A program made the translations under genes and the position numbers. 48,532 nt of DNA from assembly GCA_035526435.1 (NCBI GenBank), contig DATLCI010000150.1, forward strand, positions 1 through 48,532, read 5' to 3'. Below the pieces are notes generated by a model, which saw only the letters and a program-made list of their open reading frames with translations, was not told where the DNA came from and ran no database searches. Every line of letters starts with the position of its first letter. Position 1 is the stretch's first letter. This document shows positions 31,424 through 48,532 of this stretch, piece by piece. This DNA is from Terriglobales bacterium (GTDB taxonomy: Bacteria; Acidobacteriota; Terriglobia; Terriglobales; Acidobacteriaceae).

Positions 31424-31458
31424 ATGATTCTCCTAACTACGGTGTTTCTAAATAACCC

Positions 31459-34637: not shown

Positions 34638-35539
34638 CCGTGCACCTCAAGCCTCTGGTAGGCGGTGCCGTTGTTCTGGTGGATCATCTTGAACTTGTCG
34701 CTCAGTCCGAAGAGGCTTTCGGCATGGCCGATGAACAGGTAGCCTTCCGGATTCAAGCAGCGATAGAACTTCTCGATGAGGCGTTTTTGTTCCGCCTCGT
34801 CGAAATAGATCATCACGTTGCGGCAGAAGATCACATCGTTGCGCTGGGGCAGGAACTCGGTCTTCAGATTATGGAAGTCGAAATGGACCAGGTCTTTGAC
34901 CTGCTTCTTGATGGCGTAACGATCGCCGACTTTGTCGAAATAGCGCAGCCGATAGGCGTAGTCCACCGCTTCCATGTGATTGTCTGAGTACATGCCTTCC
35001 TGCGCGGCGCGCAAGACGGAATAATTAATGTCAGAGGCCAGGATCTCCACCTTCCACGGTGGCGGGATCATCGGCTTGGGCGAGGGCATCTCAAAGGGAA
35101 GCGGATTCCGCAGATAGTAATAAGCCAGGGCGTCACACACGATCATGGCCAGCGTGTACGGCTCTTGCCCGGTGGAGCAGCCCGCGCTCCATATCCGCAG
35201 GCTGAAATCCCGTCGCGACTGCTTGCGATGCAGGATCTCTTCCAGCGTATTTTTATGGAATAGCTCGATCTGCGGCTTGTTGCGGAAGAAGCTGGTTTCG
35301 TTGACCGTCAGGTTCTCTACCAGAGCCGCCAGTTCGGGCTTGCCCTCGCGGCTGGTGAGCAAGCGGTAGTAGCTGTAGAAGGAATCGATGCCGGTCGTCT
35401 TCAGGCGGCGATGCAGCCGGTCGGTGAGGAAATGCACGCGGCGTTCATCAAAGAACATCCCGCATTCCTGGTAGACGAGCGTCTGCAGCAATTTCAATTC
35501 GGGTTCGGTGATCTGAAGGTTCAAGCCAGGTGTGGCCAT
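34634..35539 (-). CDS. cheR: Chemotaxis protein methyltransferase CheR
   Basis: TSFFR motif (ETSFFRN), SAM site IWSAGCSTGQEPY, CRNVMIYFD. Confidence 0.9.
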   Translation of the reverse strand: MATPGLNLQITEPELKLLQTLVYQECGMFFDERRVHFLTDRLHRRLKTTGIDSFYSYYRLLTSREGKPELAALVENLTVNETSFFRNKPQIELFHKNTLEEILHRKQSRRDFSLRIWSAGCSTGQEPYTLAMIVCDALAYYYLRNPLPFEMPSPKPMIPPPWKVEILASDINYSVLRAAQEGMYSDNHMEAVDYAYRLRYFDKVGDRYAIKKQVKDLVHFDFHNLKTEFLPQRNDVIFCRNVMIYFDEAEQKRLIEKFYRCLNPEGYLFIGHAESLFGLSDKFKMIHQNNGTAYQRLEVHG

Positions 35540-35630
35540 TTTTTCCCCGGCGCGCCACCCCTACCACAGGGACTTGCGCGCGAATCTTCGCTTTCTAACA
35601 GGCGCAAGCGCCCAGGTAGTACAAGTTTTC

Positions 35631-36113
35631 TTAAACTGCCGCGCCCAGGGCCTGCCCGGCCGCCAGCTCGCCTAAGCGTCGCAGCTCGCCCTTTTGCAGG
35701 ATCTTATTCAGGTCGATCAGGATGATGAGCCGGTCATTCAGCTTACCCACGCCGGTCACATAGTTCAGCTCGCCCTCTTCGAAAACATTGGGGGGGGCTT
35801 CGACATGCGTGTGCGACATCTTCAGCACCTCAGAAGCGGCGTCTACGATCAGTCCCACCATCTTGGACTCAACCTCCACTACCAGGATGCGGTTCTTCTT
35901 GGTGCGCGTGATCTGCTTTTCTCCGAAACGCTTGCGCAAGTCCACGATGGACACGATCTTGCCGCGCAGGTTGATGACTCCCTCGATGTATTCCGGGGAG
36001 TCCGGGACCGCGGTGATGTCCGGCACGCGGACGATCTCGTGCACCATGTCAATGGGCACTCCGAATGTCTCCCGCCCGATGCGGAAACCTACGAGATGTA
36101 GATCTTTAGCCAT
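35631..36113 (-). CDS. cheW: Chemotaxis coupling protein CheW
   Basis: FRIGRETFGVPIDMVHEIV...VINLRGKIVSIVDLR. Confidence 0.9.
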   Translation of the reverse strand: MAKDLHLVGFRIGRETFGVPIDMVHEIVRVPDITAVPDSPEYIEGVINLRGKIVSIVDLRKRFGEKQITRTKKNRILVVEVESKMVGLIVDAASEVLKMSHTHVEAPPNVFEEGELNYVTGVGKLNDRLIILIDLNKILQKGELRRLGELAAGQALGAAV

Positions 36114-36130
36114 GAATCTCTCCGCCAGGA

Positions 36131-38128
36131 CTAGTTATTGGTAGTGGCATAACGGGCCAGGCTGCGCCCGTCGGTCTGCTTCGGACCATGTCCATTCAAG
36201 CTTGCTTCCAGGATGAACCGGTCCATGGAATCCAGCAGGGTACGCGCCATCTTTGACATTTGGTCCGATGACGCCGCCAACTGCGTTGATCCCGAGGTTG
36301 AACGCTGCGTCAGTTCGCGCATCTTCTCCATCGCGCGGACCACGGCTTGCGCCCCGGAGGCCTGCTCTTCTACCGCCGAGTTGATCTCGTGCGTGATCTC
36401 ATTCAAACGCCCGGTGGCCTTGGCGATCTGCGTGGAGCCATGCGACTGCTCATTCGTGGCCGCCCCGATCTCCTGCGCGAACTTGTAAACCTCAGTCACA
36501 ACGTTGGAGATCTTCTTCAGAGCGGTACCCAGGTCGCTGCCGAGGGTAAGGCCCTCATCCACGATCACCGTGCTCTTATCCATGTTCTCGACCGCTTTAC
36601 GGGCTTCCTTTTGAATGCTGCCGATAAGCTCGGAGATCTCGCGCGTAGATTGCGCCGATTTCTCCGCCAGTTTGCGGACTTCGTCTGCAACCACGGCAAA
36701 GCCCAGACCGTGTTCGCCGGCCCGCGCCGCTTCAATCGCGGCGTTTAACGCCAGCAGATTGGTCTGTTCCGCCAGGTCGTCGATCACTTCTACGATCTTG
36801 CCGATATCATCCGTTTTCGCCCCCAGATCGCTGATGATCTTGGCGGACGATTCGATCGCCGAGTTGATGCGATTGAGTCCGTCGGTCGCCTTCTCCATGG
36901 TCGTGATGCCGCTGCCCACTTCTTCACGCGAGCGTTGCGAGATGTCGAGCAGCACTTTGGCGGTATCGGCCACGCGTTGGATCGAAGCCACCATCTCATC
37001 GATCGAAGCGGAGGTCTCGCTTACGCTGGATGCCTGCGTTTGCGTGTTTTTTACCATGTTCTGCACGTTGATACTCATCTCGTGCATGGTGCTGGTGACT
37101 TCGTCGATCGCGGAAGCCGCTTGCACGTTGATACGCGCGGACTCCTCTGAAGCTGACGCTACCTCATTCGAGCCGCTGGCTACCTGCGACGCGCCGTCGC
37201 GGACGCTCTTTACCATGGCGCGCAAGCCCTGGGTCATGTCAGTGAAGGCGATGGCTAAGGTGTCGCGCTTGGAGCGGGCTTGTACGTCGACGGTGAGGTC
37301 GCCGCCTGCAATCGCTTCGGAGACAGCCGCCATTTCCTTCAAGTAGCTGACCATGTTGTTGAACGTCTGGGCGAGTTCGCCGATCTCATCGGAGCCGCTG
37401 ACATCGACTTTCTGGTCCAGGTCGCCGGAGTTGCCGATCTCGCGGGCAACGGTAATAAGGTGCCCGAGAGGCTGAGTGATCGATTGCGAGATCTTATAGG
37501 CCACGACGGCGCCGATACCCAACGCCAACAACGTGCCGATGGTCACAAACCAGAATGCGAGCGAACTCGCGCTGTCACTGGCCTTTTGCTGCGCCGCCAG
37601 CACCGTGCTGATGCTGTCCTGCGCTTCCTTCAAGGGGTCGGCAGATTTCTTTAGCCAGCTCCCGGGGTCCTTTTCCAGATAAAAGATCTGGAGTTCGGCA
37701 ACAGTGGCGTTGCCAGAATCAACCTGTTTACGTTTTTCGATCAGCGGTTCGGCAAATCCTGTTACCCAGGCTGCTTCCACATCCTTTAAGCGGGAGACCG
37801 CGCTCTTGAACTGGTCATTCATGCCGGCACTATTGACGATGGCACTGTCGATCGACTTCTGCAGCGTCTGCACGCCGGCCTTCATCTGGTCGGCTTCGCG
37901 GCCGTCGCCGCTAAGCAGGTAATTGCCCAGCGACTGCCGGTTCTGCATCATCTGAAAGCCAATGTCGGCCGATAGGCGCTGCTGTTCGAACAGCCGTGCG
38001 GTCTTCTCCTGGGCACCGCGCGCATTATTCATAGCGACAAAACTGATTGCTGCCAACACGATGAGTAGCGCCAGCACCGCGCCAAAGCCTACATAAAGTT
38101 TTTTGCCGATCGTCATTCCGTCCTCCAC
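36131..38128 (-). CDS. Methyl-accepting chemotaxis protein with periplasmic helical-bundle sensor, HAMP and signalling domain
   Basis: TM1, a helical periplasmic region of about 170 aa, TM2, then HAMP (DEIGELAQTFNNM). Conserved hairpin tip [36 protein letters not shown]. The probable start MTIGKK is at 38116. Confidence 0.9.
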   Translation of the reverse strand: MEDGMTIGKKLYVGFGAVLALLIVLAAISFVAMNNARGAQEKTARLFEQQRLSADIGFQMMQNRQSLGNYLLSGDGREADQMKAGVQTLQKSIDSAIVNSAGMNDQFKSAVSRLKDVEAAWVTGFAEPLIEKRKQVDSGNATVAELQIFYLEKDPGSWLKKSADPLKEAQDSISTVLAAQQKASDSASSLAFWFVTIGTLLALGIGAVVAYKISQSITQPLGHLITVAREIGNSGDLDQKVDVSGSDEIGELAQTFNNMVSYLKEMAAVSEAIAGGDLTVDVQARSKRDTLAIAFTDMTQGLRAMVKSVRDGASQVASGSNEVASASEESARINVQAASAIDEVTSTMHEMSINVQNMVKNTQTQASSVSETSASIDEMVASIQRVADTAKVLLDISQRSREEVGSGITTMEKATDGLNRINSAIESSAKIISDLGAKTDDIGKIVEVIDDLAEQTNLLALNAAIEAARAGEHGLGFAVVADEVRKLAEKSAQSTREISELIGSIQKEARKAVENMDKSTVIVDEGLTLGSDLGTALKKISNVVTEVYKFAQEIGAATNEQSHGSTQIAKATGRLNEITHEINSAVEEQASGAQAVVRAMEKMRELTQRSTSGSTQLAASSDQMSKMARTLLDSMDRFILEASLNGHGPKQTDGRSLARYATTNN

Positions 38129-38169
38129 ATCTGACTGCCCGGTCGTTCGCCAGGCTACTGCCCGGTACG

Positions 38170-38514
38170 CTAGTTGTTGCCGTTTCCGTTGAATTTGAAC
38201 TCGACAACCTCTTTGGTCTCTTCGCCGGGTTCATATTTGAACTGTTTGGCCGCATTTACCGCCGCGTCAATCAGCAGAGGGTGGCCGCCCAGCGCCTTGG
38301 CGGTCTTTACCGAACCATTGGCCGCGACGGTCAGCTCCACTTTTACCGCGCCGATCACGTTCATTCGCTTGGCCAGTTCGGGATATGCCGGGGTGACCTT
38401 GCTCTTGACGCTACGGTTGTTCTGGCCGAAAGCGCCGGTCGAGAGCACCACTAACATCGACGTGAGCACCATCAAGCGCGTCAACTTTCTGGTCGAAAGA
38501 TTGAATCTGGACAC
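38170..38514 (-). CDS. Secreted TonB C-terminal-domain-only protein
   Basis: PAYPELAKRMNVIGAVKVELTVAANGSVKTAKALGGHPLLIDAAVNAAKQFKYEP matches the TonB_C pattern. Preceded only by a signal-peptide-like helix. GTG at 38514 with GAGGAGG 4 nt upstream is preferred over the track start at 38661. Confidence 0.65.
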   Translation of the reverse strand: MSRFNLSTRKLTRLMVLTSMLVVLSTGAFGQNNRSVKSKVTPAYPELAKRMNVIGAVKVELTVAANGSVKTAKALGGHPLLIDAAVNAAKQFKYEPGEETKEVVEFKFNGNGNN

Positions 38515-38553
38515 ATTGCCTCCTCGGGACAGGGAATGTCCCGCTGTTACATA

Positions 38554-38569
38554 AGCAATGGGGCTGCCA
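38554..38569 (-). promoter_or_regulatory. Sigma-54 (-24/-12) promoter facing the TonB_C-MCP-che operon
   Basis: The minus strand reads TGGCAGCCCCATTGCT against consensus TGGCACG-N4-TTGCW, with exact GG-to-GC spacing. It lies about 40 nt upstream of the GTG at 38514. Confidence 0.6.
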
Positions 38570-38670
38570 GTCGGCCGCCGGTATCTAACAGGTTTACAAA
38601 TAAGCGATAAGTCAAAGAAAATAATGGCTTTATTTGGCTTATTCTTGGAGTGACTGTCCATTAACTGCCA

Positions 38671-38726
38671 GTCTCACCACTCCATGTTTGTCTCAGCATG
38701 AGACGGTTCAGGTCCATCCGTCTCAT
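38671..38726. promoter_or_regulatory. Cluster of four TGAGAC/GTCTCA hexamers including a 9-bp inverted repeat (candidate enhancer/UAS)
   Basis: GTCTCA at 38671, 38690 and 38720; TGAGAC at 38699. ATGAGACGG(38698-706)-N11-CCGTCTCAT(38718-726) is a perfect inverted repeat. The cluster lies 108-157 bp upstream of the minus-strand -24 element. Confidence 0.5.
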
Positions 38727-38756
38727 TAACAATCGAGATTCAGCCTCGTTAATTAC

Positions 38757-38786
38757 TTGACTCAAAATGAGATTGCACAGTATTTT
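38757..38786 (+). promoter_or_regulatory. Possible sigma-70-type promoter for the kinase operon
   Basis: TTGACT(38757-62)-N18-TATTTT(38781-86), about 40 nt upstream of the kinase start. By-eye match only. Confidence 0.3.
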
Positions 38787-38823
38787 ATGACGCCCCCCGA
38801 AAAGCCGTTCCCAAGGAATTCTT

Positions 38824-41679
38824 TTGAAGCCAATGCAAGCACCTCAGAAGATAGAGCCCAGCTCTGTCTCTGGTTCGGGGTTGGGGGAAGCCGATTACCT
38901 GGCTCTGGCCCGGCTGTGCGCTGATCTGGGCGCGGCGCCGGACTTCAATCATTTCCTGGAACAATTTTGCGAACGCGGAGCGGCCTTCTGTGGTTTTAAC
39001 CGTTCATTCGTTGCGTTAGTGGATGAAACCGGTTGCGAGATCCATTGCGGTTTTGACAACCATACCCCTCGGCAGATGCGGATGCGGCTGGATACTGCCT
39101 TCACGCGGCAGGTCATCGCCACGCAAAAGGCGTTTTACACCGAGAATGCGGCCGGGGAACATCAATCGGATCATGACGCAGTGCGCATGTTCAGCGTCGA
39201 GCAGTATCTAAGCGTGCCGCTGGTCCACCGGGGGAAGGTGGTGGCCGTCCTCGGGTTGCTGGACCGCAAAGATGACGGTCTGCTTACTGCCGACGTGATC
39301 GCTCGGGCCGAGGTTTTAGCTTCGCAGGTGGCCGTCATCCTCGAATCGGTTCGTAATCTTCATCAGTCCGAACTGAATCGCAAGCGGTCTGAGATATTGG
39401 TAGCGATGGCCTTGGAACTAGGTTCTTCGCTGGGCCTTCCTGACCTGGTGCATAGTTTTACCGTGCGCGCGGCCAGCTTGTTGGGCGCTCGCGGCGCGGC
39501 CCTCAGCCTGACACATGGTTCTGTCCAGGAATGTGTGGTGCTGGAAGACAGCCGCGTGGAAACCACGCGGGAGACGATGCGGGACCTGGCCCTGTTTTTC
39601 ACCGCTGCTGCCCATGAGTCTTACGAGACCGTCCAGGCCATCCCCGCGTCAGCGTTGGGCGACGTGCAAAAGAAGTTGCACTGGAACGAGTTGACCCTGG
39701 CGCGCCTGGTGGGTGGAAGCGGGGAACTGCTCGGCATCCTTTGTCTGGTTGATTGCGACCGCGGGCTCACCCGTGACGATGAACAGATGATCCTGGCGCT
39801 TACCGGGCACGCGTCGGTCGCGCTGGAAAATTCGCGACTCTTCTCCAAGATCGCCCAGTCGAATAAGCAATGGTCGGAGATATTCGACGCGCTCTCTGAC
39901 TACATCGTGGTGCATGACGATAATCATCGCGTAATGCGGGTGAACCAGCCGCTGGCGGAATTCATTGGCGCCCGGCCGGCAGAGATGATCGGCATCCACA
40001 TGCGGGACCTGCTTTCCGGCAACGAGAGTCCGGGCCTTCAACCTTGTCCGTTCTGCCTTCCCGACGCGCGCGATGAACTGTCCATGCCGGTGCTCGACCG
40101 CACCTTCCTGGTCTCCACCTCGCGTATCCACGGGGCGCTCCATGAAGGGCTCCAGACGATCCACGTGTTGCGCGACGTGACGGACCGCCGTGCCGCCGAG
40201 CGCCGTTACCGCGAGCTCTTCAACAATGTGCAGGAAGGCGTCTTTTTCTGTGACGCGCAAGGCACCTTCGTCGATGTGAATGATGCGCTCGTGCGCATGT
40301 TGGGTTATAGCAACCGTGACGAGCTGCTTGCGCTCGACGTGCCCACGCTGTTCTATGCATCGCGCGAGCAGTATCTCAGCGCCCGCAAAGCCGCCGAATC
40401 CGAGACTAAAACCACCCGCGAAGTGACCTTACGCCGCAAAAATGGAGCGCTGCTGAATGCGCTGGAAAGCTCGATGGCAGTGCGCGATGCCCGCGGCGAG
40501 ATCATCCAATATCGCGGTCTCCTGCTGGACATCACGGACGCGAAACTCTTCCAGTCGCAGTTACAGCGGGAAAAGGACTTCAACAACCAGATCCTCAACA
40601 ACACGCAGAGCATGATCATGGTGGCGGATACCGCCGGCCTCATCAGCTACGCTAATCGACGCTGCTATGAGGCAGGACAGTTCGATGAAGGCTCATTGGT
40701 GGGCCATCGCATGGCTGAATTCATCGCCGAACGTGACCGCGCGGAATGGGAAGCCAGCTTCGATGCCGTCCTTCTGGGCGAGCCGGTGAACAACCTGGAA
40801 ATGCATATGCTGCGCGGCGACGGATCCAAGGGTAAATTCTCCGCCAATATCAGCCCTATGCAAGACCAGCAGGGCAGCGTGAACAGCATCGTGGTGGTGA
40901 TGACGGATATTACGGATGTCGCCGTGATTCGCGCCAAGCTGATGCATACGGAAAAACTTGCCGCGGTGGGGCAGCTCGTCTCCGGGGTGGCCCATGAAGT
41001 CAACAATCCGCTGACGGCCATCATGGGCTTCGCGGACCTGATGCTGGAAAATCCGAGGCTGCCGAAGGCGGTCCATCAGGACTTGCGCGTCATCATGCAG
41101 GAGGCGCAGCGCACCAAGGAGATCGTGCAGAACCTGTTGAGTTTTGCCCGCCAAACGCCGCCCCATCGCAAGCTGGTGGATGTGAATGCGGTGGTGAAAC
41201 GGACCATCGCATTGCGTTCCTATGACTTCGCCAGCCATGGCGTGAAGGTGGTGGAACGCCTCGACGAAAATGTTCCGGAGATCGTGGGCGATGCTCACCA
41301 GCTTCAGCAGGTATTCCTGAACATCCTGAACAATGCCTACGACGCGATCCAGGAAGTGGATCACCGCGGACGCATCGAGATCGAGACGGAGAATGTGGGT
41401 GACGGATATATCCGCATCACCTTCCGTGACAACGGCCCGGGGGTGGAGAACCCGGAGCGCATCTTCGAACCCTTCTTTACCACCAAGGACGTAGGCAAGG
41501 GTACCGGGCTCGGCCTCAGTATTTGCTACGGCATTGTCCGCGAGCATGGCGGCGAGATCATGTGCCGTCCGCAGCGTCCGGAATTGCAAGGCGCAACTTT
41601 CTGCGTGCGCCTGCCCACCGTGCCCACCCAGATCGCTACCGCCATGGAAGGCCAGGAACAAGGGGAGGTGGCCGAATGA
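38824..41679 (+). CDS. Cytoplasmic sensor histidine kinase with tandem GAF and multiple PAS domains
   Basis: No TM segment. GAF-like N-terminal two domains and three PAS-like segments. H-box VAHEVNNPLTAIMGFADLML; N, G1 and G2 boxes (LNILNNAYDA, DNGPGV, GKGTGLGLS). The start is TTG 38824 or ATG 38833. Confidence 0.9.
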   Translation: MKPMQAPQKIEPSSVSGSGLGEADYLALARLCADLGAAPDFNHFLEQFCERGAAFCGFNRSFVALVDETGCEIHCGFDNHTPRQMRMRLDTAFTRQVIATQKAFYTENAAGEHQSDHDAVRMFSVEQYLSVPLVHRGKVVAVLGLLDRKDDGLLTADVIARAEVLASQVAVILESVRNLHQSELNRKRSEILVAMALELGSSLGLPDLVHSFTVRAASLLGARGAALSLTHGSVQECVVLEDSRVETTRETMRDLALFFTAAAHESYETVQAIPASALGDVQKKLHWNELTLARLVGGSGELLGILCLVDCDRGLTRDDEQMILALTGHASVALENSRLFSKIAQSNKQWSEIFDALSDYIVVHDDNHRVMRVNQPLAEFIGARPAEMIGIHMRDLLSGNESPGLQPCPFCLPDARDELSMPVLDRTFLVSTSRIHGALHEGLQTIHVLRDVTDRRAAERRYRELFNNVQEGVFFCDAQGTFVDVNDALVRMLGYSNRDELLALDVPTLFYASREQYLSARKAAESETKTTREVTLRRKNGALLNALESSMAVRDARGEIIQYRGLLLDITDAKLFQSQLQREKDFNNQILNNTQSMIMVADTAGLISYANRRCYEAGQFDEGSLVGHRMAEFIAERDRAEWEASFDAVLLGEPVNNLEMHMLRGDGSKGKFSANISPMQDQQGSVNSIVVVMTDITDVAVIRAKLMHTEKLAAVGQLVSGVAHEVNNPLTAIMGFADLMLENPRLPKAVHQDLRVIMQEAQRTKEIVQNLLSFARQTPPHRKLVDVNAVVKRTIALRSYDFASHGVKVVERLDENVPEIVGDAHQLQQVFLNILNNAYDAIQEVDHRGRIEIETENVGDGYIRITFRDNGPGVENPERIFEPFFTTKDVGKGTGLGLSICYGIVREHGGEIMCRPQRPELQGATFCVRLPTVPTQIATAMEGQEQGEVAE

Positions 41680-42056
41680 CGGTCTCCGAACTCCCTTTGC
41701 TGGTGATCGAGGATGAACCCTCAGTACAAGTCTTCTTGCGCACCGCGCTCGAACGCGATGGCTTCGATATCGTGCTGGCTTCCTCCGGCGTGGAAGGGTT
41801 GCGGCTGTTGCAGCAACGGGACTTTCGCGCCGTGATCTCCGATATGCGCACTCCCGGAGGCGTGAATGGCGGCGATGTCCATAGTTGGCTTTCTGCGAAC
41901 CGCCCCGAGCTGGTCGCCAAGATGCTTTTCATCACCGGCGACATTGTGAACGACGAGACGACTGAGATCTTGCAACGCACCGGGGTGCGCTGTATCGAAA
42001 AACCATTCCGCGTGCAGGAGCTGCTGGCCGCGGTCAAACAAGTGATAGGGACTTAG
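41676..42056 (+). CDS. Single-domain response regulator (receiver only)
   Basis: LLVIEDEP, phospho-acceptor context VISDMRTPG, FITG, EKPF. Its ATG overlaps the kinase stop (ATGA at 41676-79). The track ORF start at 41523 is rejected. Confidence 0.85.
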   Translation: MTVSELPLLVIEDEPSVQVFLRTALERDGFDIVLASSGVEGLRLLQQRDFRAVISDMRTPGGVNGGDVHSWLSANRPELVAKMLFITGDIVNDETTEILQRTGVRCIEKPFRVQELLAAVKQVIGT

Positions 42057-42057
42057 T

Positions 42058-43458
42058 ATGCAGGACTTGAAGATCCGATTTCTGATCGTGGATGACGACA
42101 AGAACATCCGTCGCCTATGCACCACCATTGGCACGTCTCTGGGCTTTGAATGTTCAGAAGCCGATAGCGGTCAGGCCGCGCTTAACATCATCGACACGGC
42201 TTCGCCGGACATGATCCTCGCGGACTTGATGATGCCCAATATGTCCGGCCTGGAGTTCCTCGATGAAGTAAAGAAGCTCTCGCCGCGCACCGAAGTGGCC
42301 ATCATGACGGGCCATGGGAGTATTGAAGCGGCCGTTCGGGCCATGCGCATGGGCGCCTATGATTTCATCACCAAACCCTTCCGCATCGAAGAATTGAAGT
42401 TGTTGCTGCAGCGGATGGAAGAAAAGATCCAGCTGGTGGCGGAGAACCAGTTCCTGCGCGAGCGCGTGAGCGCGGACTCCGACCTGAATGGCATCATCGG
42501 CTCCTCCGCCAAGATCCAGGACGTGCTTCGCATGGTCGCGCGGTTGAAGGACACGCGCACTCCCGTGCTTATCACGGGCGAGAGCGGCACGGGTAAAGAA
42601 CTAGTGGCCCGAGCCATCCACTACCGCGGTATCCTCGCGAAGAAGCCTTTCATCGCGGTGGATTGCGGCTCCCTGGTCCCGACTTTGATCGAGAGTGAAT
42701 TGTTCGGCTACGAAAAAGGCGCGTTCACCGGCGCCAACCGGTCCAAGGAAGGACTCTTTCAGGCGGCCAATGCCGGCACCATCTTTCTCGACGAGATCGG
42801 TGAACTTCCGCTCGAGATGCAGGCCAAGTTACTTCGGGTATTGCAGGAGAAAGAGGTGCGGCCCGTCGGACGCAATGACAATGTCCGCGTCGACGTTCGC
42901 GTGATCGCCGCCACCAATCGTGACCTGGAAGCTTCCTATCGCAATGGCTCCTTCCGCAAGGACCTGTTCTTCCGCCTGAATGTGGTCACGATCCATCTCC
43001 CGTCACTCCGCGAACGCCGGACGGACATTCCCACCCTGGTGAACTGGTTCCTGGACAAATATGCGCAGGGAAAGGTGCTCCATGTTTCGGACGCGGCGAT
43101 GAATTGTATGTTGGAGTATGAATGGCCGGGCAATGTTCGCGAGCTGGAGAACTGTATTGAACGCGCGGTGGCCTTGGGTAGCGACAGTGTGCTCAACGTC
43201 CACGATCTGCCGCCTGCTCTCCGGGCTCATGCGCCCGGAGCCCGCACGCTGCCGCCCAAGATTGAGACCGGCAACAGTGCAACCGCCACCGACCTGGAAG
43301 AACTCGAAAAAGAGACCATTCAACGCGTCTTCGCCCAAGTGCATGGCGACAAGGCCCTCGCGCTGAAAATGCTGGGCATCAGCCGGGCCACCTTATATAG
43401 GAAGCTAAAGCGCTATAACATCTCACCTGAAAAAGGAATTTCTGCGGCAGCTTCCTGA
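42058..43458 (+). CDS. Sigma-54-dependent transcriptional activator, NtrC-type response regulator (REC-AAA+-Fis HTH)
   Basis: Receiver ([19 protein letters not shown]). AAA+ Walker A GESGTGKE and an exact GAFTGA sigma-54 contact loop ([15 protein letters not shown]). C-terminal [19 protein letters not shown]. Confidence 0.9.
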
Positions 43459-43488
43459 TTTCGGTCTGTGGAAATCTTCCCTTGACCG

Positions 43489-43513
43489 TGAGACTCTGTA
43501 TCAACCTGAGACT
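43489..43513 (+). promoter_or_regulatory. Direct repeat of TGAGACT (candidate enhancer/UAS)
   Basis: TGAGACT at 43489-95 and 43507-13, 18-bp period, 96 and 78 bp upstream of the -24 GG. Same core hexamer and same orientation relative to the promoter as three of the four copies in the 38.7 kb cluster. Confidence 0.45.
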
Positions 43514-43556
43514 TTCGCTGCTTGGAATCCTTGTCTTGCCTTAGCCTTCCTTTATT

Positions 43557-43569
43557 AATCAATAGCTTA
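43557..43569. promoter_or_regulatory. IHF-consensus site between the candidate UAS and the sigma-54 promoter
   Basis: AATCAATAGCTTA matches WATCAANNNNTTR at every specified position, within an AT-rich stretch. Confidence 0.4.
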
Positions 43570-43583
43570 CGAAGTCTCCTTTT

Positions 43584-43599
43584 TGGCCGTCCTCTTGCT
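43584..43599 (+). promoter_or_regulatory. Sigma-54 (-24/-12) promoter facing the three uncharacterised genes
   Basis: TGGCCGTCCTCTTGCT against TGGCACG-N4-TTGCW, with exact GG-to-GC spacing. It lies 126 nt downstream of the activator gene stop and about 50-60 nt upstream of the next start codons. Confidence 0.65.
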
Positions 43600-43656: not shown

Positions 43657-44013
43657 GTGGCGAAAACCGACCGAACTACGAATGAAGATACTGCGGTGAA
43701 CCGTCTGGCCGAATTCTTTCCCACGGCGGTGCGCATACGCATCCCGGTCTCCGTCACGGCCAGCCGTAAGACCGGAAGCGTTGGGAAGTCAGCCTCGTGT
43801 GAGGAAACCACGATCGAGTTCGGAACGGCGAAAGAAGTTTTATTCACCTCAGCCCTGCCGCTCGAGTTCAACGACACTGTTCGCTTGAAGAATCCGGACG
43901 GCTCTTTTGAGGCACAAGGTTCCGTGGTCGCGGTGCAACTGGGTTCACCCCGCACCGCGGTCGCGGTTCGATTCAATGAAAAGGTCCAAAACTGGATCAT
44001 CCAGTCGGCCTAG
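43657..44013 (+). CDS. Small beta-rich protein, PilZ-like but with degenerate c-di-GMP motifs (hypothetical)
   Basis: Pattern AVRIRIPVSV...EETTIEFGTAKEVLFTS...TVRLKNPDG...GSVVAVQ...AVAVRF resembles the PilZ barrel. Canonical RxxxR and D/NxSxxG motifs are not intact. The start is uncertain (GTG 43657 or GTG 43696). Confidence 0.4.
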   Translation: MAKTDRTTNEDTAVNRLAEFFPTAVRIRIPVSVTASRKTGSVGKSASCEETTIEFGTAKEVLFTSALPLEFNDTVRLKNPDGSFEAQGSVVAVQLGSPRTAVAVRFNEKVQNWIIQSA

Positions 44014-44045: not shown

Positions 44046-45446
44046 ATGTCTACAGCCATCGCAGCAATCGATCTGAATGTTCTAGCGGGACAATGGCGCG
44101 CCGCGCGCCGCATTTACCCGATCTATTCAGCCGTGCTTCGGCAATTCAACTTGGGAGTGGAGCCTTGCCGGGAGCTAGAAAGCCCCATCAACCGCTCGGA
44201 GCCGCAATTGATGCGCAGCATCGAGGAATGGTTCGAGCGGGCCGATGCCAAGATTGAAGCTTTCCAGATCCGCCAGATATTGCAGATTACGGAGCTCGGC
44301 ACGGAAGAAAGCCTTCGTGCCTTGATCGCTCGCCAGCTCGCTTATCCGCAAAAAACCAAGTCCGTCCGCGACAAGGTGGATTTCCTTATCGTCCAGTATT
44401 ACGCGCAGTTCTCTCCGCACGGCCCGCAGGAAGATCTTAGCTTCGATCATTTTTCTGATGTGCTGGAGCCGTTGGTGGGAGAAGTCTCGCCGCTATTGCC
44501 GCCCTTCTGCGCTGAACTCGATGCTCTGCTGCCGCGGATCGACGCTTGTAACAGCCTCGGGGAATTGCTAAACGGACAAGTCATCGACCGCGCTCGCCAG
44601 ATCAAAGACCAGGCCGAGGAGCGCTATTTCTCGCCGTCAGTACTGGTGGCCGTAGCCCGCTTCAATTATCTGCTGCGACTCGCGTTCTTCCGCCTGATGC
44701 ACGCCGACTTACACGCCATCCGCTTCGCTTTACACGGCATGGAAGCCCGGGGTCAGCACGTCTGCGATTGTTCGGCGGCGGGATTGCAGAAACAAGAACC
44801 GCTGATCTCTGTCCGGCAGATCTGCCACGATTGGAAGAAGCCTTTCCGCGCGGCTTATTCCGCCGGCAGCAACTTCAAGCAATTGATCGCGATTCGTTCG
44901 GCGGTTGAAAAAGCCCTAGCCGCCCCACTGCCGGTGGAAAAGGACATCGCCGTCGCTGCCGCAGCCAACAGCCTGATGGAAGCCACCGCTAAGGTCGTGA
45001 CCCATGTGAAATCCGAGCCAGCGCCGCCTGCGCGGGTCCCAGCCACCCTGGATCTTGACGGTTGTTTGGAGCAGATCGCAGTTCAGTTGATCAACACCAC
45101 ACCTAAAGGTGTCCCCGTGACCAATGTGACTATCGCGGGCACCAAGCTCTTGCTTGCATCCTGGGAAGTTGCGGCATTCGTTCGGGGCGGCAATGAGACT
45201 TCTGACGCGCTCCAGCGGGCGGTCGCAGCGCGGGCCGTGCTCGCCGTTCTGCTCAATGACGCCAAGTCCGGTGAGGCGCTAAGTTTGACAGATGCCGTTC
45301 AGGCGGCCCATACCGAAGCTGCACAACTGCAGGAACTGATAGCCAAAGCCAAAGATGCCAAGAATATTGACGCGGCCGTGAATCTTGCGGCCTCCACCAA
45401 ACGCCTGCTCGCGGCCATTGATGAAGCCGAGAAGCTGCGCGTTTAG
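44046..45446 (+). CDS. Hypothetical 466-aa protein, predicted helical and cytoplasmic, no recognisable domain
   Basis: Long uninterrupted ORF with protein-like composition and no competing long ORF on either strand. No signal peptide or TM segment, and no motif I can assign. Confidence 0.6.
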   Translation: MSTAIAAIDLNVLAGQWRAARRIYPIYSAVLRQFNLGVEPCRELESPINRSEPQLMRSIEEWFERADAKIEAFQIRQILQITELGTEESLRALIARQLAYPQKTKSVRDKVDFLIVQYYAQFSPHGPQEDLSFDHFSDVLEPLVGEVSPLLPPFCAELDALLPRIDACNSLGELLNGQVIDRARQIKDQAEERYFSPSVLVAVARFNYLLRLAFFRLMHADLHAIRFALHGMEARGQHVCDCSAAGLQKQEPLISVRQICHDWKKPFRAAYSAGSNFKQLIAIRSAVEKALAAPLPVEKDIAVAAAANSLMEATAKVVTHVKSEPAPPARVPATLDLDGCLEQIAVQLINTTPKGVPVTNVTIAGTKLLLASWEVAAFVRGGNETSDALQRAVAARAVLAVLLNDAKSGEALSLTDAVQAAHTEAAQLQELIAKAKDAKNIDAAVNLAASTKRLLAAIDEAEKLRV

Positions 45447-45469: not shown

Positions 45470-46153
45470 GTGAATCATCCGACCATTGTCATCATTGCCG
45501 ATCAGAACGACCAGGCCCGCGATATCGTTGCCCGCTGGCAGATGGAACGCACGGTACCCGGCTTCACTTTGTTGAACAGTGAATTGTGGGATCCGGCGCT
45601 GGTGGCGGCTTGCGATCTGGCCATCGTCTTCGACGTGAAGGAAGAGCGGGCTACGCCCATCCTGGCGGCCTTTGACGGAAAAAATATTCCTTGCATCTAT
45701 GTTGCGGAGAAGCTGGCTGCCTTTCAGCACTTTCGCTCCGCTTTCCCGCGCGTGCTGGTCATCCAGCAGCACGACGCCTGGCTCGAATCATTGGTGGTGC
45801 TGGCGAGCGAAGTCCTGCGGCGGGTAGAGGCCACGGTTCGGGCGCGCAAAGCCGAAGCCAACGCACAACAGATGAACCGGCAAGCGGCGCTGGGGAAATA
45901 CATGTTGGAGACGCGTCACAGCTTCAATAACGCCCTGACGTCCGTTTTAGGCAATGCCGAGCTCATGTTGCTGGAGCCGGCCGCGCTTCCTCACCACGTG
46001 CGCGAGCAGGTGGACACCATCCACAGCATGGCGTTACGGCTGCACGAGATGATGCAGCGTTTTTCGTCACTGGAGACGGAGATGCACTTCGCGGACCGCG
46101 AGTCTCAAATTGACACCCGGAGGAGAAGTCAGGCTTACATTCCAGGTTCCTAA
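45470..46153 (+). CDS. Pseudo-receiver plus HisKA (DHp) domain protein lacking an ATPase domain
   Basis: The N-terminal 120 aa or so have a receiver-like beta-alpha pattern (TIVIIADQ, DLAIVFDV, PCIYVAE, VLVIQQH) but are missing several conserved residues. A coiled coil and H-box RHSFNNALTSVLGNAELML follow. The protein ends about 60 aa later, with no N/G boxes. GTG start with AGGGAG upstream. Confidence 0.6.
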   Translation: MNHPTIVIIADQNDQARDIVARWQMERTVPGFTLLNSELWDPALVAACDLAIVFDVKEERATPILAAFDGKNIPCIYVAEKLAAFQHFRSAFPRVLVIQQHDAWLESLVVLASEVLRRVEATVRARKAEANAQQMNRQAALGKYMLETRHSFNNALTSVLGNAELMLLEPAALPHHVREQVDTIHSMALRLHEMMQRFSSLETEMHFADRESQIDTRRRSQAYIPGS

Positions 46154-46276
46154 GAGGTTTATCTACCTCGATTAAGGTCAATGAAATGTTAAGCTTTACC
46201 CACTCTAGGCCCGGTGAGACGACCGTTTTGCAAAGTTTAGTCAACTTGTTGAAAACCTTGATTTTCAGGGATATGA

Positions 46277-46636
46277 ATGAAAAAGATCCTGGTCTGTGAT
46301 GATTCGTTGGCCGAGATGAAACTGATCCAGTCCGTGCTGCAACAGGCCGGTTACTGGTCGGTCCCGGTCAGCGACTCCCGGCAGATTGAAAAGACGATCG
46401 AAGTGGAGCGGCCCCACCTGATCCTGCTGGACGTAGTCATGCCTGACCGGAACGGATATCAGGTTTGCCGGGATTTAAAGGGCAATGCCGAATTCAGCCG
46501 CATCCCGGTGATCATCGTGAGTTCCAAGTCGCTGGAGAGTGACAAGTTTTGGGCCAAGCAGCAGGGCGCCGATGGATATGTGATCAAGCCCTTTACCGCC
46601 GTCCAGTTACTGGATGCGGTCAAGAGATTCGTTTAG
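46277..46636 (+). CDS. Single-domain response regulator, PilG/PilH (CheY-like) type
   Basis: ILVCDDS, ILLDVVMP, IIVSSK, IKPF. First gene of an RR-CheW-MCP cluster. Confidence 0.85.
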   Translation: MKKILVCDDSLAEMKLIQSVLQQAGYWSVPVSDSRQIEKTIEVERPHLILLDVVMPDRNGYQVCRDLKGNAEFSRIPVIIVSSKSLESDKFWAKQQGADGYVIKPFTAVQLLDAVKRFV

Positions 46637-46639
46637 ACC

Positions 46640-47164
46640 ATGGAAGAAACGCCACAACTCGAGCCTGTCTCCGCTGAATTTGCGGCAGCGGCGCAGGAAC
46701 AGTCGCAAACCAGCGGCGAACGCTTGCCGGAGACGCAGTACTGCATCTTCCGCGCCGGGCGGGAACGCTTTTGTTTACAGGTGCTCGACGTAGAAGAAGT
46801 GGTCGAGTGGCCGACCGTGACCAAGGTGCCGCTGTCGCCCAGCTTCTTGATGGGAGTATTCAATCTCCGGGGCGCGATCGTCCCGGTCATCGATATTGCT
46901 TTTACCGAAGGGCGTCGCGCGGACTTGCCGCCAAAGCATTGCGTGGTGGCAGCCATGAAGGGAACCGACCCCACGGAGATATTGCGGTTGGGCATCGCGG
47001 CGGATGAAGTCATCGGCACTTACACCACCGCCGAACCGCTGTTGATCGATGCCGCACCCCGGGATGTTCCGCACTGCTGCGGGATGCTGCGGCACGAAGA
47101 CCGCTTGGCGTTGGCCTTGAGCCTGCGCCGCCTCACCGAGACGTTTCCGGTGCCGGTGATCTGA
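46640..47164 (+). CDS. CheW-like coupling protein (PilI-like position)
   Basis: YCIFRAGRERFCLQVLDVEEVVEW...GVFNLRGAIVPVIDI. Confidence 0.85.
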   Translation: MEETPQLEPVSAEFAAAAQEQSQTSGERLPETQYCIFRAGRERFCLQVLDVEEVVEWPTVTKVPLSPSFLMGVFNLRGAIVPVIDIAFTEGRRADLPPKHCVVAAMKGTDPTEILRLGIAADEVIGTYTTAEPLLIDAAPRDVPHCCGMLRHEDRLALALSLRRLTETFPVPVI

Positions 47165-47240
47165 GTTTTGTACTGAGAACGGCCGCAGCTTCGGCAGCGG
47201 AGAGTCACATAAGTTTTTTCTGGGGTAGTGGAGGCTGTAT

Positions 47241-48532
47241 ATGAAAGGTCGGTTAGGTTCGACCATCTGGTTGCTCGCCATCATCAACGCAGTGGCGTTG
47301 TTCGGCGTGCTTATTCTCGCGTACACCGCGGGCGCGAATTCAGGGCCGCAGGGCTTGCCCATCGCCAGCGCTTTCTCGGCGGCTGGAAACACGCCGTTGC
47401 TCCTGTTGATCGGCATCATGGTGGCGCTGACTATGAGCGTGGTGCTGGTCATCTTGCTGGGGAATAAGATCCTCAAGCCCGTAAAGGAACTTGCGGATTT
47501 TTCCGAGCGCCTGGCCAGCGGTGATTACAAGACCAAAGCCAACATCGATTCGAATGATGATTTCGGCTATGTGGCGGACAATTTCAACCGCAGCGGCGAC
47601 AAGATCGCCCGCGCGGTGACCCAGCAAGAAGCCCAGGAGTCCTTGCAGAAGAGCGTCACTGACTTTCTCACCATTGTCAGCCAGATCGCGCGGGGCGACC
47701 TCACGCTGCGCGGCAATGTCACCAACGACGCGCTCGGCAACGTGGTTGACTCCGTCAATTACATGCTCGACAACTTCACCCGGGTGCTGGAGCGGGTCCG
47801 CAAGAGCGCCATCGATGTGGCCAGTAACGCCAATGAGATCTTGCTTTCCTCGGAAGACATGTCCGCCGGCGCCACGCAGCAGGACCAGGAGATCACCAAC
47901 ACCTCTTCCGCGGTGGAAGAGTTGACGGTCTCCATGAAGCAGGTGTCCAACAACGCCGAAGCCAGCGCCGAGGCAGCGCGCCGCGCTCTCGACGCCGCCG
48001 AGCAGGGCAACCGCGCGGTGCGCGACACGCTTGAAGGCATGCAGCGCATCCGCGCTTCCGTGCAAGCGACCGCGAAGAAGATCAAGTCGCTGGGCGACCG
48101 GTCACTGGAGATCTCCGAGATCATCAACGTCATCAATGACATCACCGAACAGACCAACTTGCTCGCGCTTAACGCCGCCATTGAAGCGGCGCGCGCGGGT
48201 GAAGCGGGCCGCGGATTTGCCGTAGTTGCGGACGAAGTCCGCAAGCTCGCCGAACACTCGCGTACCGCGACCAAGGACATTGCCGCGCTGATCAAAGCCA
48301 TTCAAGCGGAGACCAATGAAGCGGTCGTCGTCATGGAGGAGGGCACCAAGGAAGTGGAAGTCGGCGCCAAGCTGGCCGACCAAGCCGGTAAAGCTCTGGA
48401 AGCTATTTCCAGCGTCGTTCGTCAATCCGCCGAGTTGGTGCAGGAGATCTCGCTCGCTTCCAAGCAACAGGTGCGCGGGACGGAAGGTGTCGCCAACGCG
48501 ATGCAGATCATCTCCAACATCACCCGGCAGAC
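47241..48532 (+). CDS. Methyl-accepting chemotaxis protein with minimal periplasmic loop (PilJ-like position), 3' end outside the window
   Basis: My own translation from ATG 47241 (GGAGG at 47230-34): [30 protein letters not shown]...(loop of about 20 aa)...[28 protein letters not shown] then follows, then [36 protein letters not shown]. No stop through 48532. Absent from the ORF track because it is open-ended. Confidence 0.85.

What the first reader, a model, noticed from the sequence alone, without database searches (positions are those of the whole stretch)
38554..43599. One NtrC-type activator flanked on both sides by sigma-54 promoters carrying the same TGAGAC upstream repeats
The kinase / response regulator / GAFTGA-activator operon (38824-43458) is bracketed by two 16-nt elements with exact -24 GG / -12 GC spacing. 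TGGCAGCCCCATTGCT lies on the minus strand at 38569-38554 and faces the TonB_C-MCP-che operon. TGGCCGTCCTCTTGCT lies on the plus strand at 43584-43599 and faces the unknown cassette. Both are preceded at enhancer-like distances by clustered copies of one hexamer, TGAGAC. Five of the six copies share the same orientation relative to transcription. Spacing is 78-96 bp upstream in one case and 108-157 bp in the other, with similar pair spacing of 18 and 19 bp. This implies a single regulon in which a cytoplasmic GAF/PAS kinase switches on a complete chemotaxis pathway and the unknown cassette together.
Basis: partly seen in the sequence, partly recalled or inferred. Interest (0 to 1): 0.75.

Follow-up and report, generated by a model that had tools for sequence, protein, structure and literature searches.

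The report
Sigma-54 activator hub between chemosensory operons
A two-component sigma-54 activator in a soil acidobacterium sits between two chemotaxis-like gene clusters whose promoters carry the same conserved binding sites, an ordinary kind of switch with a newly defined site and target set.

Summary
They are the only exact TGGC-N7-TTGCW matches in the window, and no shuffle reproduced the hexamer clustering.

Comparative evidence supports the interpretation. In 80 related Terriglobia (Acidobacteriota) loci, the gene order che1 | kinase-REC-activator | p118-p466-p227-che2 is conserved. Nearly every locus keeps a sigma-54 motif at both positions. TGAGAC copies sit at fixed distances: about -155/-125 at che1 and about -97/-78 at the cassette. 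The surrounding DNA is not conserved.

Four refinements:
- The site is a 15-bp dyad, GTHTCA-N3-TGAGAC, plus extra half-sites.
- An exact IHF consensus lies between enhancer and promoter at the cassette.
- The "unknown cassette" leads a second complete chemosensory cluster.
- Most relatives have a third enhancer/sigma-54 module in front of that cluster. It has decayed in the window.

This is a canonical NtrC-type, enhancer-dependent regulon with a previously undescribed site and target set, so a new member of a known kind. Binding, rpoN dependence and the kinase's role are inferred, not shown.

The parts
30477..38517 (-). che1 operon, eight tightly packed genes: secreted TonB_C-domain protein (38517-38170, probable GTG start at 38515), MCP (38128-36131), CheW (36113-35631), CheR (35539-34634), CheA (34637-32523), CheB (32526-31459), CheY-like (31423-30974), CheX (30977-30477)
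   Evidence: Pfam hits. Gaps between genes are at most 92 nt or the genes overlap. Synteny is conserved in relatives.
38554..38569 (-). Sigma-54 promoter P_A, TGGCAGCCCCATTGCT (-24 GG, -12 GC), facing che1. It lies about 40 nt upstream of the TonB_C start.
   Evidence: An equivalent motif is present on this strand in 52 of 53 evaluable related loci. Family consensus is TGGCa.tg.CctTGCa.
38671..38725 (-). Enhancer (UAS-A). TGAGAC half-sites at 38671-76(-), 38690-95(-), 38699-704(+), 38720-25(-). Includes the perfect dyad GTCTCAGCATGAGAC at 38690-38704.
   Evidence: In relatives TGAGAC sits at about -155 and -125 from the promoter, 30-33 bp apart. At least one hexamer is present in 52/52 loci and at least two in 45/52.
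38757..38786 (+). Candidate sigma-70-type promoter of the kinase operon (TTGACT-18-TATTTT). It overlaps a degenerate copy of the dyad, GACTCAAAATGAGAT, at 38759-38773. Possible autoregulatory operator.
   Evidence: This is speculative: no consistent equivalent was found in relatives, and no conserved sigma-54 motif faces the kinase.
38824..41679 (+). Cytoplasmic sensor histidine kinase with GAF, three PAS, HisKA and HATPase_c domains
   Evidence: Pfam. No hydrophobic segment above threshold. The N-terminal GAF region is absent in many orthologues.
41676..42056 (+). Stand-alone receiver (REC) protein
   Evidence: Pfam. Conserved between kinase and activator in most loci.
42058..43458 (+). NtrC-type enhancer-binding protein: REC (D56), AAA+ domain (Walker A at 174, GAFTGA at 221, Walker B at 244), and HTH_8
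   Evidence: GAFTGA is present in 65 of 66 orthologues and the HTH sequence [16 protein letters not shown] is conserved. The protein scores below every NCBIfam equivalog cut-off.
43489..43512 (+). Enhancer (UAS-B): TGAGAC (43489-94), 3 nt, GTATCA (43498-503), 3 nt, TGAGAC (43507-12). That is an imperfect dyad plus an extra half-site.
   Evidence: Family consensus is TGAGAC-N4-GTTTCA-N3-TGAGAC at about -97/-78. At least two hexamers occur in 64/72 loci and the dyad in 55/72.
43557..43569 (+). IHF-consensus element AATCAATAGCTTA (WATCAANNNNTTR), between UAS-B and the -24 element
   Evidence: An exact WATCARNNNNTTR match occurs 26-29 nt before the TGG (41 loci; one more at -17) among 73 related loci. 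Background is 0.11 per kb.
43584..43599 (+). Sigma-54 promoter P_B, TGGCCGTCCTCTTGCT, facing p118
   Evidence: A motif is present in 75 of 80 related loci within 350 nt of p118/p466. It stays with the target operon when that operon is detached from the activator gene (L016, L018, L023, L071).
43657..44013 (+). p118, a small PilZ-fold beta-barrel protein. The c-di-GMP-binding motifs are not conserved.
   Evidence: No Pfam or NCBIfam hit. AlphaFold pLDDT 80.5. Foldseek top hits are PilZ domains: BcsA, MotI, YcgR, VCA0042. Alignment.
44046..45446 (+). p466, a conserved all-alpha protein of unknown function, specific to Terriglobia
   Evidence: More than 300 homologues, all unnamed. pLDDT 82.6. 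No PDB fold match, best E = 0.5.
45470..46153 (+). p227, a protein with a HisKA (DHp) domain only and no ATPase domain
   Evidence: Pfam HisKA, weak. A large family of about 227-aa HisKA-only proteins.
46102..46232 (+). Vestige of a third module: GTCTCAAATTGACAC (46102-46116) and AGACGACCGTTTTGCA (46217-46232), where the -24 GG has been lost
   Evidence: In 58 of 73 relatives an intact TGGCTGCGCAATTGCA-type motif lies within 130 nt (typically about 55 nt) upstream of the CheY gene, with the dyad about 125 nt upstream of it.
46277..48532 (+). Start of che2: CheY-like REC (46277-46636), CheW (46640-47164), MCP (from 47241, cut by the window end)
   Evidence: In relatives the cluster continues with CheR, a hybrid CheA (two Hpt domains plus REC), CheB and CheW. 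No terminator lies between p227 and the CheY gene.

Best explanation
The kinase/REC/activator operon encodes a dedicated NtrC-type enhancer-binding protein. This protein activates two sigma-54 promoters flanking its own operon; ancestrally there were three.

**Proposed mechanism (inferred).**
1. A cytoplasmic signal sensed by the GAF/PAS kinase leads to phosphorylation of the activator's receiver domain at D56. The small stand-alone REC protein is probably a competing acceptor or phosphate sink.
2. The activated protein assembles on dyad sites, GTHTCA-N3-TGAGAC plus extra TGAGAC half-sites. These sites are spaced about 2 or 3 helical turns apart and lie 80-160 bp upstream of each promoter.
3. 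DNA bending brings the activator to the closed sigma-54 holoenzyme complex at the -24/-12 element. At the cassette promoter the bend is probably made by IHF at a consensus site.
4. ATP hydrolysis opens the promoter.

**Targets.** One is the eight-gene che1 operon. The other is the p118-p466-p227 cassette. In this lineage, where the third promoter has decayed, transcription from the cassette promoter probably reads through into the che2 cluster.

**Shown versus inferred.** Shown by sequence and comparison: the motifs, their positions, their conservation, and their exclusivity to this gene cluster. Inferred: which protein binds, sigma-54 dependence, the direction of regulation (activation), and the signal.
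For: - The motifs are exact and unique in the window, and the hexamer clustering is non-random.
- The activator has every sequence hallmark needed to act on sigma-54.
- Across 80 Terriglobia loci, with proteins only 35-80% identical, gene order is conserved.
- Sigma-54 motifs persist at both positions.
- Hexamers persist at fixed offsets while flanking bases carry almost no information.
- All composite hits in 1.39 Mb (a sigma-54 motif with at least 2 hexamers 50-200 nt upstream) map to the three modules. The exception is about 13 hits on one conserved coding-sequence motif beside module B, which simply pick up its hexamers.
- An IHF consensus sits at a fixed position in 42 of 73 loci.
- The activator's HTH is as conserved as the hexamer.
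- Natural controls agree. p466 paralogues outside the cluster lack both elements. che2 clusters detached from the activator gene keep them.
- No Rfam RNA family matches in these intergenic regions.
Against: - There are no experimental data: no transcription start sites, binding assays or mutants.
- rpoN could not be checked in this genome and is absent from the sequence in hand.
- Only one half-site per dyad is strongly conserved at some positions, so the stoichiometry of binding is unclear.
- The HTH motif LGISRxTLYRKLK is common among NtrC-family proteins, so its conservation does not prove specificity (my own knowledge).
- In several clades the kinase is absent, truncated or replaced. The signal input may therefore not be this kinase everywhere.
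- Any regulon members beyond 10 kb either side could not be examined.
Confidence: 0.8

Rival explanations
1. The TGAGAC dyads are bound by a different transcription factor encoded elsewhere. The neighbouring activator acts through other sites, or from solution. The shared hexamers would then reflect co-regulation by a third party.
For: Binding was not tested. Module B persists in loci where the activator gene is not within 10 kb (L018, L023).
Against: The sites sit at classical enhancer distances upstream of sigma-54 promoters. They have dyad symmetry suited to a dimeric Fis-type HTH. In the roughly 66 loci that retain the full-length activator gene they lie in the two intergenic regions immediately flanking its operon, and nowhere else in 1.39 Mb of neighbourhood. 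Sigma-54 promoters need an enhancer-binding protein, and this is the one encoded there.
Confidence: 0.08
2. The wiring runs the other way as well, or mainly, as in Myxococcus xanthus Che3/CrdS/CrdA. There the chemosensory CheA tunes the phosphorylation state of the NtrC-like regulator. Here one or both CheA proteins, or the DHp-only p227, would play that role. The GAF/PAS kinase would then be only one of several inputs, and the arrays would feed back on their own synthesis.
For: The layout is similar: kinase plus NtrC-like regulator, divergent from a che operon that begins with an envelope-domain protein. In M. xanthus, CheA3 acts as a phosphatase on CrdA~P (PMC3147164). This locus also carries an extra stand-alone REC, a HisKA-only protein and a hybrid CheA with two Hpt domains. 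The kinase is dispensable in some clades.
Against: Unlike Che3, che1 has its own CheY and CheX, and che2 has a CheY-like REC. No sequence evidence pairs CheA or p227 with the activator's REC. This rival adds to the main explanation rather than replacing it.
Confidence: 0.15
3. The motifs are chance or compositional matches, or remnants of a repeat element, and the operons use ordinary sigma-70 promoters.
For: Two TGGC-N7-TTGCW matches in 48.5 kb are not in themselves more than chance would give. A hexamer pair alone is weak evidence.
Against: GG-N10-GC is conserved with exact spacing, and the hexamers sit at fixed offsets, in dozens of diverged genomes whose flanking sequence is not conserved. 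A four-hexamer cluster occurred in 0 of 2000 shuffles. No repeat family beyond the sites themselves was found.
Confidence: 0.02

Closest known systems
NtrB/NtrC with glnAp2 and glnHp2 (enteric bacteria)
   Same: A two-component kinase phosphorylates a REC-AAA+-HTH activator. The activator binds dyad enhancer sites 100-150 bp upstream of a -24/-12 promoter. IHF assists looping at some promoters. NtrC sites overlapping sigma-70 promoters give autoregulation, which may be paralleled here at 38759-38773. These NtrC properties are from my own knowledge of the system.
   Different: The protein scores below the NtrC equivalog cut-off: 429 bits against 559. The site is GTCTCA-N3-TGAGAC (6-N3-6), not TGCACC-N5-GGTGCA. 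The kinase is a GAF/PAS protein rather than a PII-controlled NtrB. The targets are chemosensory operons, not nitrogen assimilation genes.
Myxococcus xanthus CrdS/CrdA with the Che3 cluster (PMC3147164)
   Same: An NtrC-like regulator and its kinase are encoded next to, and divergently from, a che operon. That operon's first gene encodes an envelope-domain protein: CrdB with an OmpA domain there, a TonB_C protein here.
   Different: In Che3 the che system regulates the activator, and CrdA's targets were unknown in that paper. Che3 lacks CheY. Here che1 has CheY and CheX, and the promoters of the che operons carry the enhancer sites. Orthology to CrdA was not tested.
PilS/PilR and FleS/FleR (FlrB/FlrC, FlgS/FlgR) motility regulons
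   Same: Two-component NtrC-type activators drive sigma-54 promoters of motility-related surface apparatus genes. In some species these include chemotaxis genes (my own knowledge).
   Different: No pilin or flagellar gene is a target in the sequence available. The kinase is soluble, unlike PilS. NCBIfam FlgR and FlbD scores are far below their cut-offs.
AtoS/AtoC (best-scoring NCBIfam models)
   Same: The highest scores for both proteins are to these models: activator to AtoC 474 bits, kinase to AtoS 288 bits. Domain order is the same.
   Different: Both scores are well below the equivalog cut-offs of 714 and 646. The genomic context is unrelated to acetoacetate metabolism.

Membership tests
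Sigma-54 (-24/-12) promoter | GG and GC doublets exactly 10 nt apart within a TGGCAC-N5-TTGCW-like element | tested here: met
   Both sites match TGGC-N7-TTGCW exactly.
Sigma-54 (-24/-12) promoter | Correct orientation and short distance to the first gene of an operon | tested here: met
   P_A lies about 40 nt before the TonB_C GTG. P_B lies about 58 nt before the p118 GTG.
Sigma-54 (-24/-12) promoter | Conservation at orthologous positions | tested here: met
   Present in 52 of 53 loci (module A) and 75 of 80 loci (module B).
Sigma-54 (-24/-12) promoter | Transcription start about 12 nt downstream of the GC, and dependence on rpoN | not testable with these tools
   No expression data are available. 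rpoN is not in the window or in the fetched loci.
Group I (NtrC-type) bacterial enhancer-binding protein | REC domain with acceptor Asp, AAA+ domain with Walker A/B and GAFTGA loop, C-terminal Fis-type HTH | tested here: met
   Pfam REC, Sigma54_activat, AAA_lid_14 and HTH_8. D56, GESGTGKE at 174, GAFTGA at 221, LDEIGE at 244. Best PDB sequence matches are NtrC-family regulators.
Group I (NtrC-type) bacterial enhancer-binding protein | Phosphorylation-dependent oligomerisation and ATPase activity | not testable with these tools
   Requires biochemistry.
Enhancer (UAS) of a sigma-54 promoter | Multiple activator sites 70-200 bp upstream, with dyad symmetry and helical phasing | tested here: met
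   Dyad GTHTCA-N3-TGAGAC plus half-sites. Spacing between direct copies is 18-21 bp (module B) or 30-33 bp (module A). Positions run from -78 to -165.
Enhancer (UAS) of a sigma-54 promoter | Bound by the cognate activator | not testable with these tools
   Inferred only, from adjacency, exclusivity and co-conservation with the HTH.
IHF-assisted sigma-54 promoter | IHF consensus WATCAANNNNTTR between enhancer and promoter | tested here: met
   Exact match at 43557-43569. Present 26-29 nt before the TGG (41 loci; one more at -17) among 73 loci. Module A has only a 1-mismatch site in the window and weaker conservation in relatives.
IHF-assisted sigma-54 promoter | The organism encodes IHF | not tested
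   No IHF gene was looked for. The genome is not available.
Named orthologous groups (AtoC, NtrC, NtrX, ZraR, GlrR, LuxO, FlgR, FlbD) | Score at or above the NCBIfam equivalog cut-off | tested here: not met
   The best is AtoC at 474 bits against a cut-off of 714. All other models are also below cut-off.
Che3/CrdSA-type system (che system whose output is an NtrC-like regulator) | The che cluster lacks CheY and signals to the adjacent activator | tested here: not met
   che1 encodes CheY and CheX, and che2 a CheY-like REC. Phosphotransfer could not be tested.
PilZ domain (p118) | PilZ beta-barrel fold | tested here: met
   Foldseek top hits are PilZ domains, with probability 1.0, TM-score 0.46-0.56 and E about 3e-3.
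PilZ domain (p118) | RxxxR and (D/N)xSxxG c-di-GMP-binding motifs | tested here: not met
   Only one Arg is invariant, in FFPxAxRxRIPV, and there is no DxSxxG. No Pfam PilZ hit.

The most novel reading that the evidence does not exclude
The activator could be a master switch across the class Terriglobia that co-ordinates synthesis of two chemosensory arrays together with a trio of undescribed accessory proteins: a PilZ-fold protein, a novel all-alpha protein and a DHp-only protein. The arrays could in turn feed back on the activator's phosphorylation. The routes would be CheA, the DHp-only protein or the stand-alone REC, as CheA3 does on CrdA. If so, chemosensory arrays would control their own expression.
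Probability: 0.15. Interest if true: 0.7.

Novelty: new member of a known kind. Interest (0 to 1): 0.45.

Why it matters
Acidobacteria of the class Terriglobia are abundant in soil but almost unstudied genetically. This locus gives a precise, testable cis-regulatory code: the dyad GTCTCA-N3-TGAGAC, an IHF site and a -24/-12 promoter. It also points to a specific regulator-target pairing conserved across the class.

The locus predicts that whole chemosensory pathways are switched on transcriptionally by a dedicated cytoplasmic sensor. It also ties three conserved proteins of unknown function (p118, p466, p227) to chemosensory signalling. The loss of the third promoter in the window's lineage is a small, clean example of regulon rewiring.

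The mechanism itself is textbook sigma-54 biology.

Tried and rejected
- **Autoregulation by sigma-54.** No conserved -24/-12 motif faces the kinase operon. A degenerate dyad overlaps a sigma-70-like -35 box in the window, but it has no consistent counterpart in relatives. It is kept only as a side note.
- **Third promoter in the window.** I looked for it because relatives have one. The -24 GG is mutated, so it is scored as vestigial.
- **Function of p466.** No Pfam or NCBIfam hit. The AlphaFold model is confident, but there is no PDB fold match.
- **p118 as a c-di-GMP receptor.** The PilZ fold is present but the binding motifs are absent.
- **Structured RNA in the intergenic regions.** No Rfam match there.
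- **Literature.** I found no paper on TGAGAC enhancer sites or on sigma-54 control of chemosensory clusters in Acidobacteria.
- **rpoN.** No RpoN-box ORF occurs in the window or in 1.34 Mb of related loci. This says nothing about the genome as a whole.
- **Genome-wide regulon scan.** A metagenome pattern scan would have been swamped by chance hits, by my estimate hundreds to tens of thousands for patterns of 15-19 specified bases. It was not run.

Full report

Yes. The + strand reads agcaatggggctgcca at 38554-38569, which is TGGCAGCCCCATTGCT on the minus strand. It reads TGGCCGTCCTCTTGCT at 43584-43599.

A search for TGGC-N7-TTGCW finds exactly these two sites in the 48.5-kb window. Two matches are not more than chance as a count: 1.0 is expected, and 28 of 100 shuffles gave at least 2. 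What is unusual is where they lie. Both fall in the two intergenic regions bracketing the only enhancer-binding-protein operon. Each is on the strand facing the downstream gene, a few tens of nucleotides before a start codon.

TGAGAC is under-represented in the window overall, with 14 copies against 20.6 expected. Six copies nevertheless sit in two patches: 38671(-), 38690(-), 38699(+), 38720(-) and 43489(+), 43507(+). No four-hexamer cluster appeared in 2000 shuffles.

**2. The genes**

- 38824-41679: a kinase with GAF, three PAS, HisKA and HATPase domains and no hydrophobic segment, so it is cytoplasmic.
- 41676-42056: a stand-alone receiver (REC) protein.
- 42058-43458: an activator with REC, Sigma54_activat, AAA-lid and HTH_8 domains. 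It has D56, a Walker A motif, GAFTGA at residue 221 and a Walker B motif.
- Minus strand, 38517-30477: a packed eight-gene operon encoding a secreted TonB_C-domain protein, MCP, CheW, CheR, CheA, CheB, CheY and CheX.

The "unknown cassette" consists of three genes.

- p118 (43657-44013) has no family hit. Its model is a PilZ-fold barrel that lacks the c-di-GMP-binding motifs.
- p466 (44046-45446) is a confidently modelled all-alpha protein with no PDB fold match.
- p227 (45470-46153) carries a HisKA (DHp) domain only.

A CheY-like REC, CheW and an MCP follow immediately, and the MCP runs off the window end. In relatives this cluster continues with CheR, a 1067-aa hybrid CheA (two Hpt domains and a C-terminal REC), CheB and a second CheW. 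The cassette is therefore the head of a second complete chemosensory cluster, che2.

The first 30 kb of the window are housekeeping genes, with no rpoN.

**3. Comparative test**

Homologues of p466 are unnamed proteins of Terriglobales/Terriglobia. A profile of 16 of them retrieved 80 loci from Terriglobia metagenome-assembled genomes, each with 10-kb flanks.

tblastn mapping shows one gene order in nearly all of them: che1(-), TonB_C(-) | kinase, REC, activator, p118, p466, p227, CheY, CheW, MCP, CheR, CheA-REC, CheB. Protein identities to the window range from about 35% to 90%.

*Promoters.*
- In the activator-to-p118 region, every one of 69 evaluable loci has a GG-N10-GC element within 3 mismatches of TGGCAC-N5-TTGCW on the + strand. 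With a tighter window, the figure is 75 of 80 loci.
- In the divergent region, 52 of 53 loci have such an element on the minus strand facing che1, many with 0-1 mismatches.
- Nothing comparable is conserved facing the kinase.

*Hexamers.*
- At che1, TGAGAC occurs at about -155 and -125 from the motif, 30-33 bp apart. At least one copy is present in 52/52 loci and at least two in 45/52.
- At the cassette, it occurs at about -97/-78 or -109/-88, 18-21 bp apart. At least one copy is present in 68/72 loci and at least two in 64/72.
- Logos anchored on the hexamer show almost no information in flanking positions, with two exceptions. A second, inverted half-site gives GTCTCA-N3-TGAGAC at che1 and TGAGAC-N4-GTTTCA-N3-TGAGAC at the cassette. 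There is also a block matching the IHF consensus.
- The window fits this pattern. It has a perfect dyad, GTCTCAGCATGAGAC, at 38690-38704 and an imperfect one, GTATCAACCTGAGAC, at 43498-43512.

*IHF.* WATCARNNNNTTR occurs 26-29 nt upstream of the TGG at the cassette promoter in 41 loci (one more at -17) of 73, against a background of 0.11 per kb. The window has the exact consensus, AATCAATAGCTTA, at 43557-43569. At che1 the signal is weaker: 7 forward and 9 reverse matches at fixed positions, and only a 1-mismatch site in the window.

*Specificity.* There are 785 sigma-54-like motifs on both strands of the 80 loci plus the window (1.39 Mb). Of these, 178 have at least two hexamers 50-200 nt upstream. 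All 178 map to this gene cluster. About 13 of them are not promoters: they hit one conserved coding motif, TGGCnCGGCTGATGCC (the antisense of the HTH-coding region), which lies next to the cassette enhancer and so picks up its hexamers.

*Natural controls*.
- Two p466 paralogues outside the cluster (L049, L063) have neither element.
- che2 clusters separated from the activator gene (L018, L023) keep both. So do loci with 2-kb insertions after the activator gene (L016, L071).
- The module therefore belongs to the target promoter, not to the 3' end of the activator gene.

*Activator.* GAFTGA is present in 65 of 66 full-length orthologues, and the HTH sequence [16 protein letters not shown] is conserved, in parallel with the hexamer.

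**4. A third module**

The cluster survey also revealed hexamer groups at the 3' end of p227. In 58 of 73 relatives, a sigma-54 motif lies within 130 nt (typically about 55 nt) upstream of the che2 CheY gene, most often TGGCTGCGCAATTGCA. The motif GTCTCA-GGA-TGAGAC sits about 125 nt upstream of it.

In the window and its closest relatives this module has decayed. GTCTCAAATTGACAC remains at 46102-46116. At the expected promoter position the sequence is AGACGACCGTTTTGCA, with the -24 GG lost. No terminator-like hairpin lies between p227 and the CheY gene. In this lineage che2 is therefore plausibly read from the cassette promoter. That last step is inference.

**5. Mechanism**

The anatomy is that of a classical enhancer-dependent promoter: dyad sites on one face of the helix, a bend site, and a -24/-12 element.

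The best-supported model has the GAF/PAS kinase phosphorylating the activator. The activator then oligomerises on the dyads and remodels the sigma-54 holoenzyme at both promoters. This co-induces che1 and the cassette, and probably che2 with it.

The sequence elements and their conservation are shown. Binding by this protein, sigma-54 dependence, the sign of regulation and the identity of the signal are inferred.

The kinase is the weakest link. Its N-terminal GAF region is missing in many orthologues, and the whole gene is absent or replaced in several clades.

**6. Comparison with known systems**

The activator is a generic NtrC-family member. It scores below all NCBIfam equivalog cut-offs, the best being AtoC at 474 bits against 714, so it is not an orthologue of any named regulator.

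It works like NtrB/NtrC at glnAp2 and glnHp2. The site geometry differs (6-N3-6), and so do the sensor and the targets.

The closest genomic analogue I found is M. xanthus CrdS/CrdA next to che3. There the che system modulates the NtrC-like regulator, and the regulator's targets were unknown (PMC3147164). Here che1 has its own CheY and CheX, and the che promoters carry the enhancer. The arrow activator-to-che is therefore what the sequence supports. A CrdA-like feedback is possible but untested.

Literature searches found nothing on this site, or on sigma-54 control of chemosensory clusters in Acidobacteria.

**7. Verdict**

It is a new member of a known kind of system, with:
- a newly defined binding site;
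- a target set conserved across the class Terriglobia, comprising two chemosensory clusters and three uncharacterised proteins;
- a documented promoter loss in the window's lineage.

It is useful and directly testable, but not mechanistically surprising. Interest 0.45.

Noticed in passing
window 46102-46232; L013-L080 upstream of the che2 CheY gene: A third enhancer plus sigma-54 module (GTCTCA-GGA-TGAGAC about 125 nt upstream of TGGCTGCGCAATTGCA) precedes the che2 CheY gene in 58 of 73 relatives. In the window and its nearest relatives it is degenerate, with the -24 GG lost.
   Followed up: yes
window 38757-38786: A degenerate copy of the dyad, GACTCAAAATGAGAT (38759-38773), overlaps the -35 box of a sigma-70-like promoter (TTGACT-18-TATTTT) in front of the kinase operon. 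It may be an autoregulatory operator. No consistent counterpart was found in relatives.
   Followed up: partly
window 44046-45446: p466 belongs to a family of more than 300 unnamed Terriglobia proteins. The AlphaFold model is a confident all-alpha structure (pLDDT 82.6) with no PDB fold match (best E = 0.5). It is always encoded between a PilZ-fold protein and a HisKA-only protein at the head of che2.
   Followed up: partly
window 43657-44013: p118 has a PilZ-like beta-barrel fold but lacks the RxxxR and DxSxxG c-di-GMP-binding motifs. An upstream 17-codon ORF (ATG at 43646) with a strong GGAGGA ribosome-binding site overlaps its GTG start.
   Followed up: partly
window 45470-46153: p227 has a HisKA/DHp domain but no ATPase domain. 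It belongs to a very large family (more than 3500 hits) of about 227-aa proteins. It may act as a phosphotransfer or phosphatase module in che2.
   Followed up: no
window 26201-26298 (+): Bacterial small SRP RNA (RF00169, 68 bits). It overlaps the annotated starts of the flanking ORFs 23898-26231(-) and 26274-27356(+).
   Followed up: no
L032, L035, L038, L039, L041, L052, L058 (about 280 nt beyond P_A, about 465 nt before the kinase start): In the Angelobacter-like clade a tandem TGAGAC-N3/4-TGAGAC pair lies in the roughly 750-bp gap between the che1 promoter and the kinase gene. Its purpose is unknown. There may be an unrecognised small gene or an extra operator there.
   Followed up: no
L059, L061, L070, L078 (and L075, L079, L080): In these Acidiferrales-type loci the GAF/PAS kinase and stand-alone REC are missing or replaced by about 2.3 kb of unrelated sequence. 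The activator, both promoters and the hexamers are retained. The sensory input appears to be exchangeable.
   Followed up: partly
window 14622-16430 (-): A dCache-HAMP-HD-GYP-type (HD_5) protein, possibly a c-di-GMP phosphodiesterase, lies among housekeeping genes about 15 kb from the che clusters.
   Followed up: no
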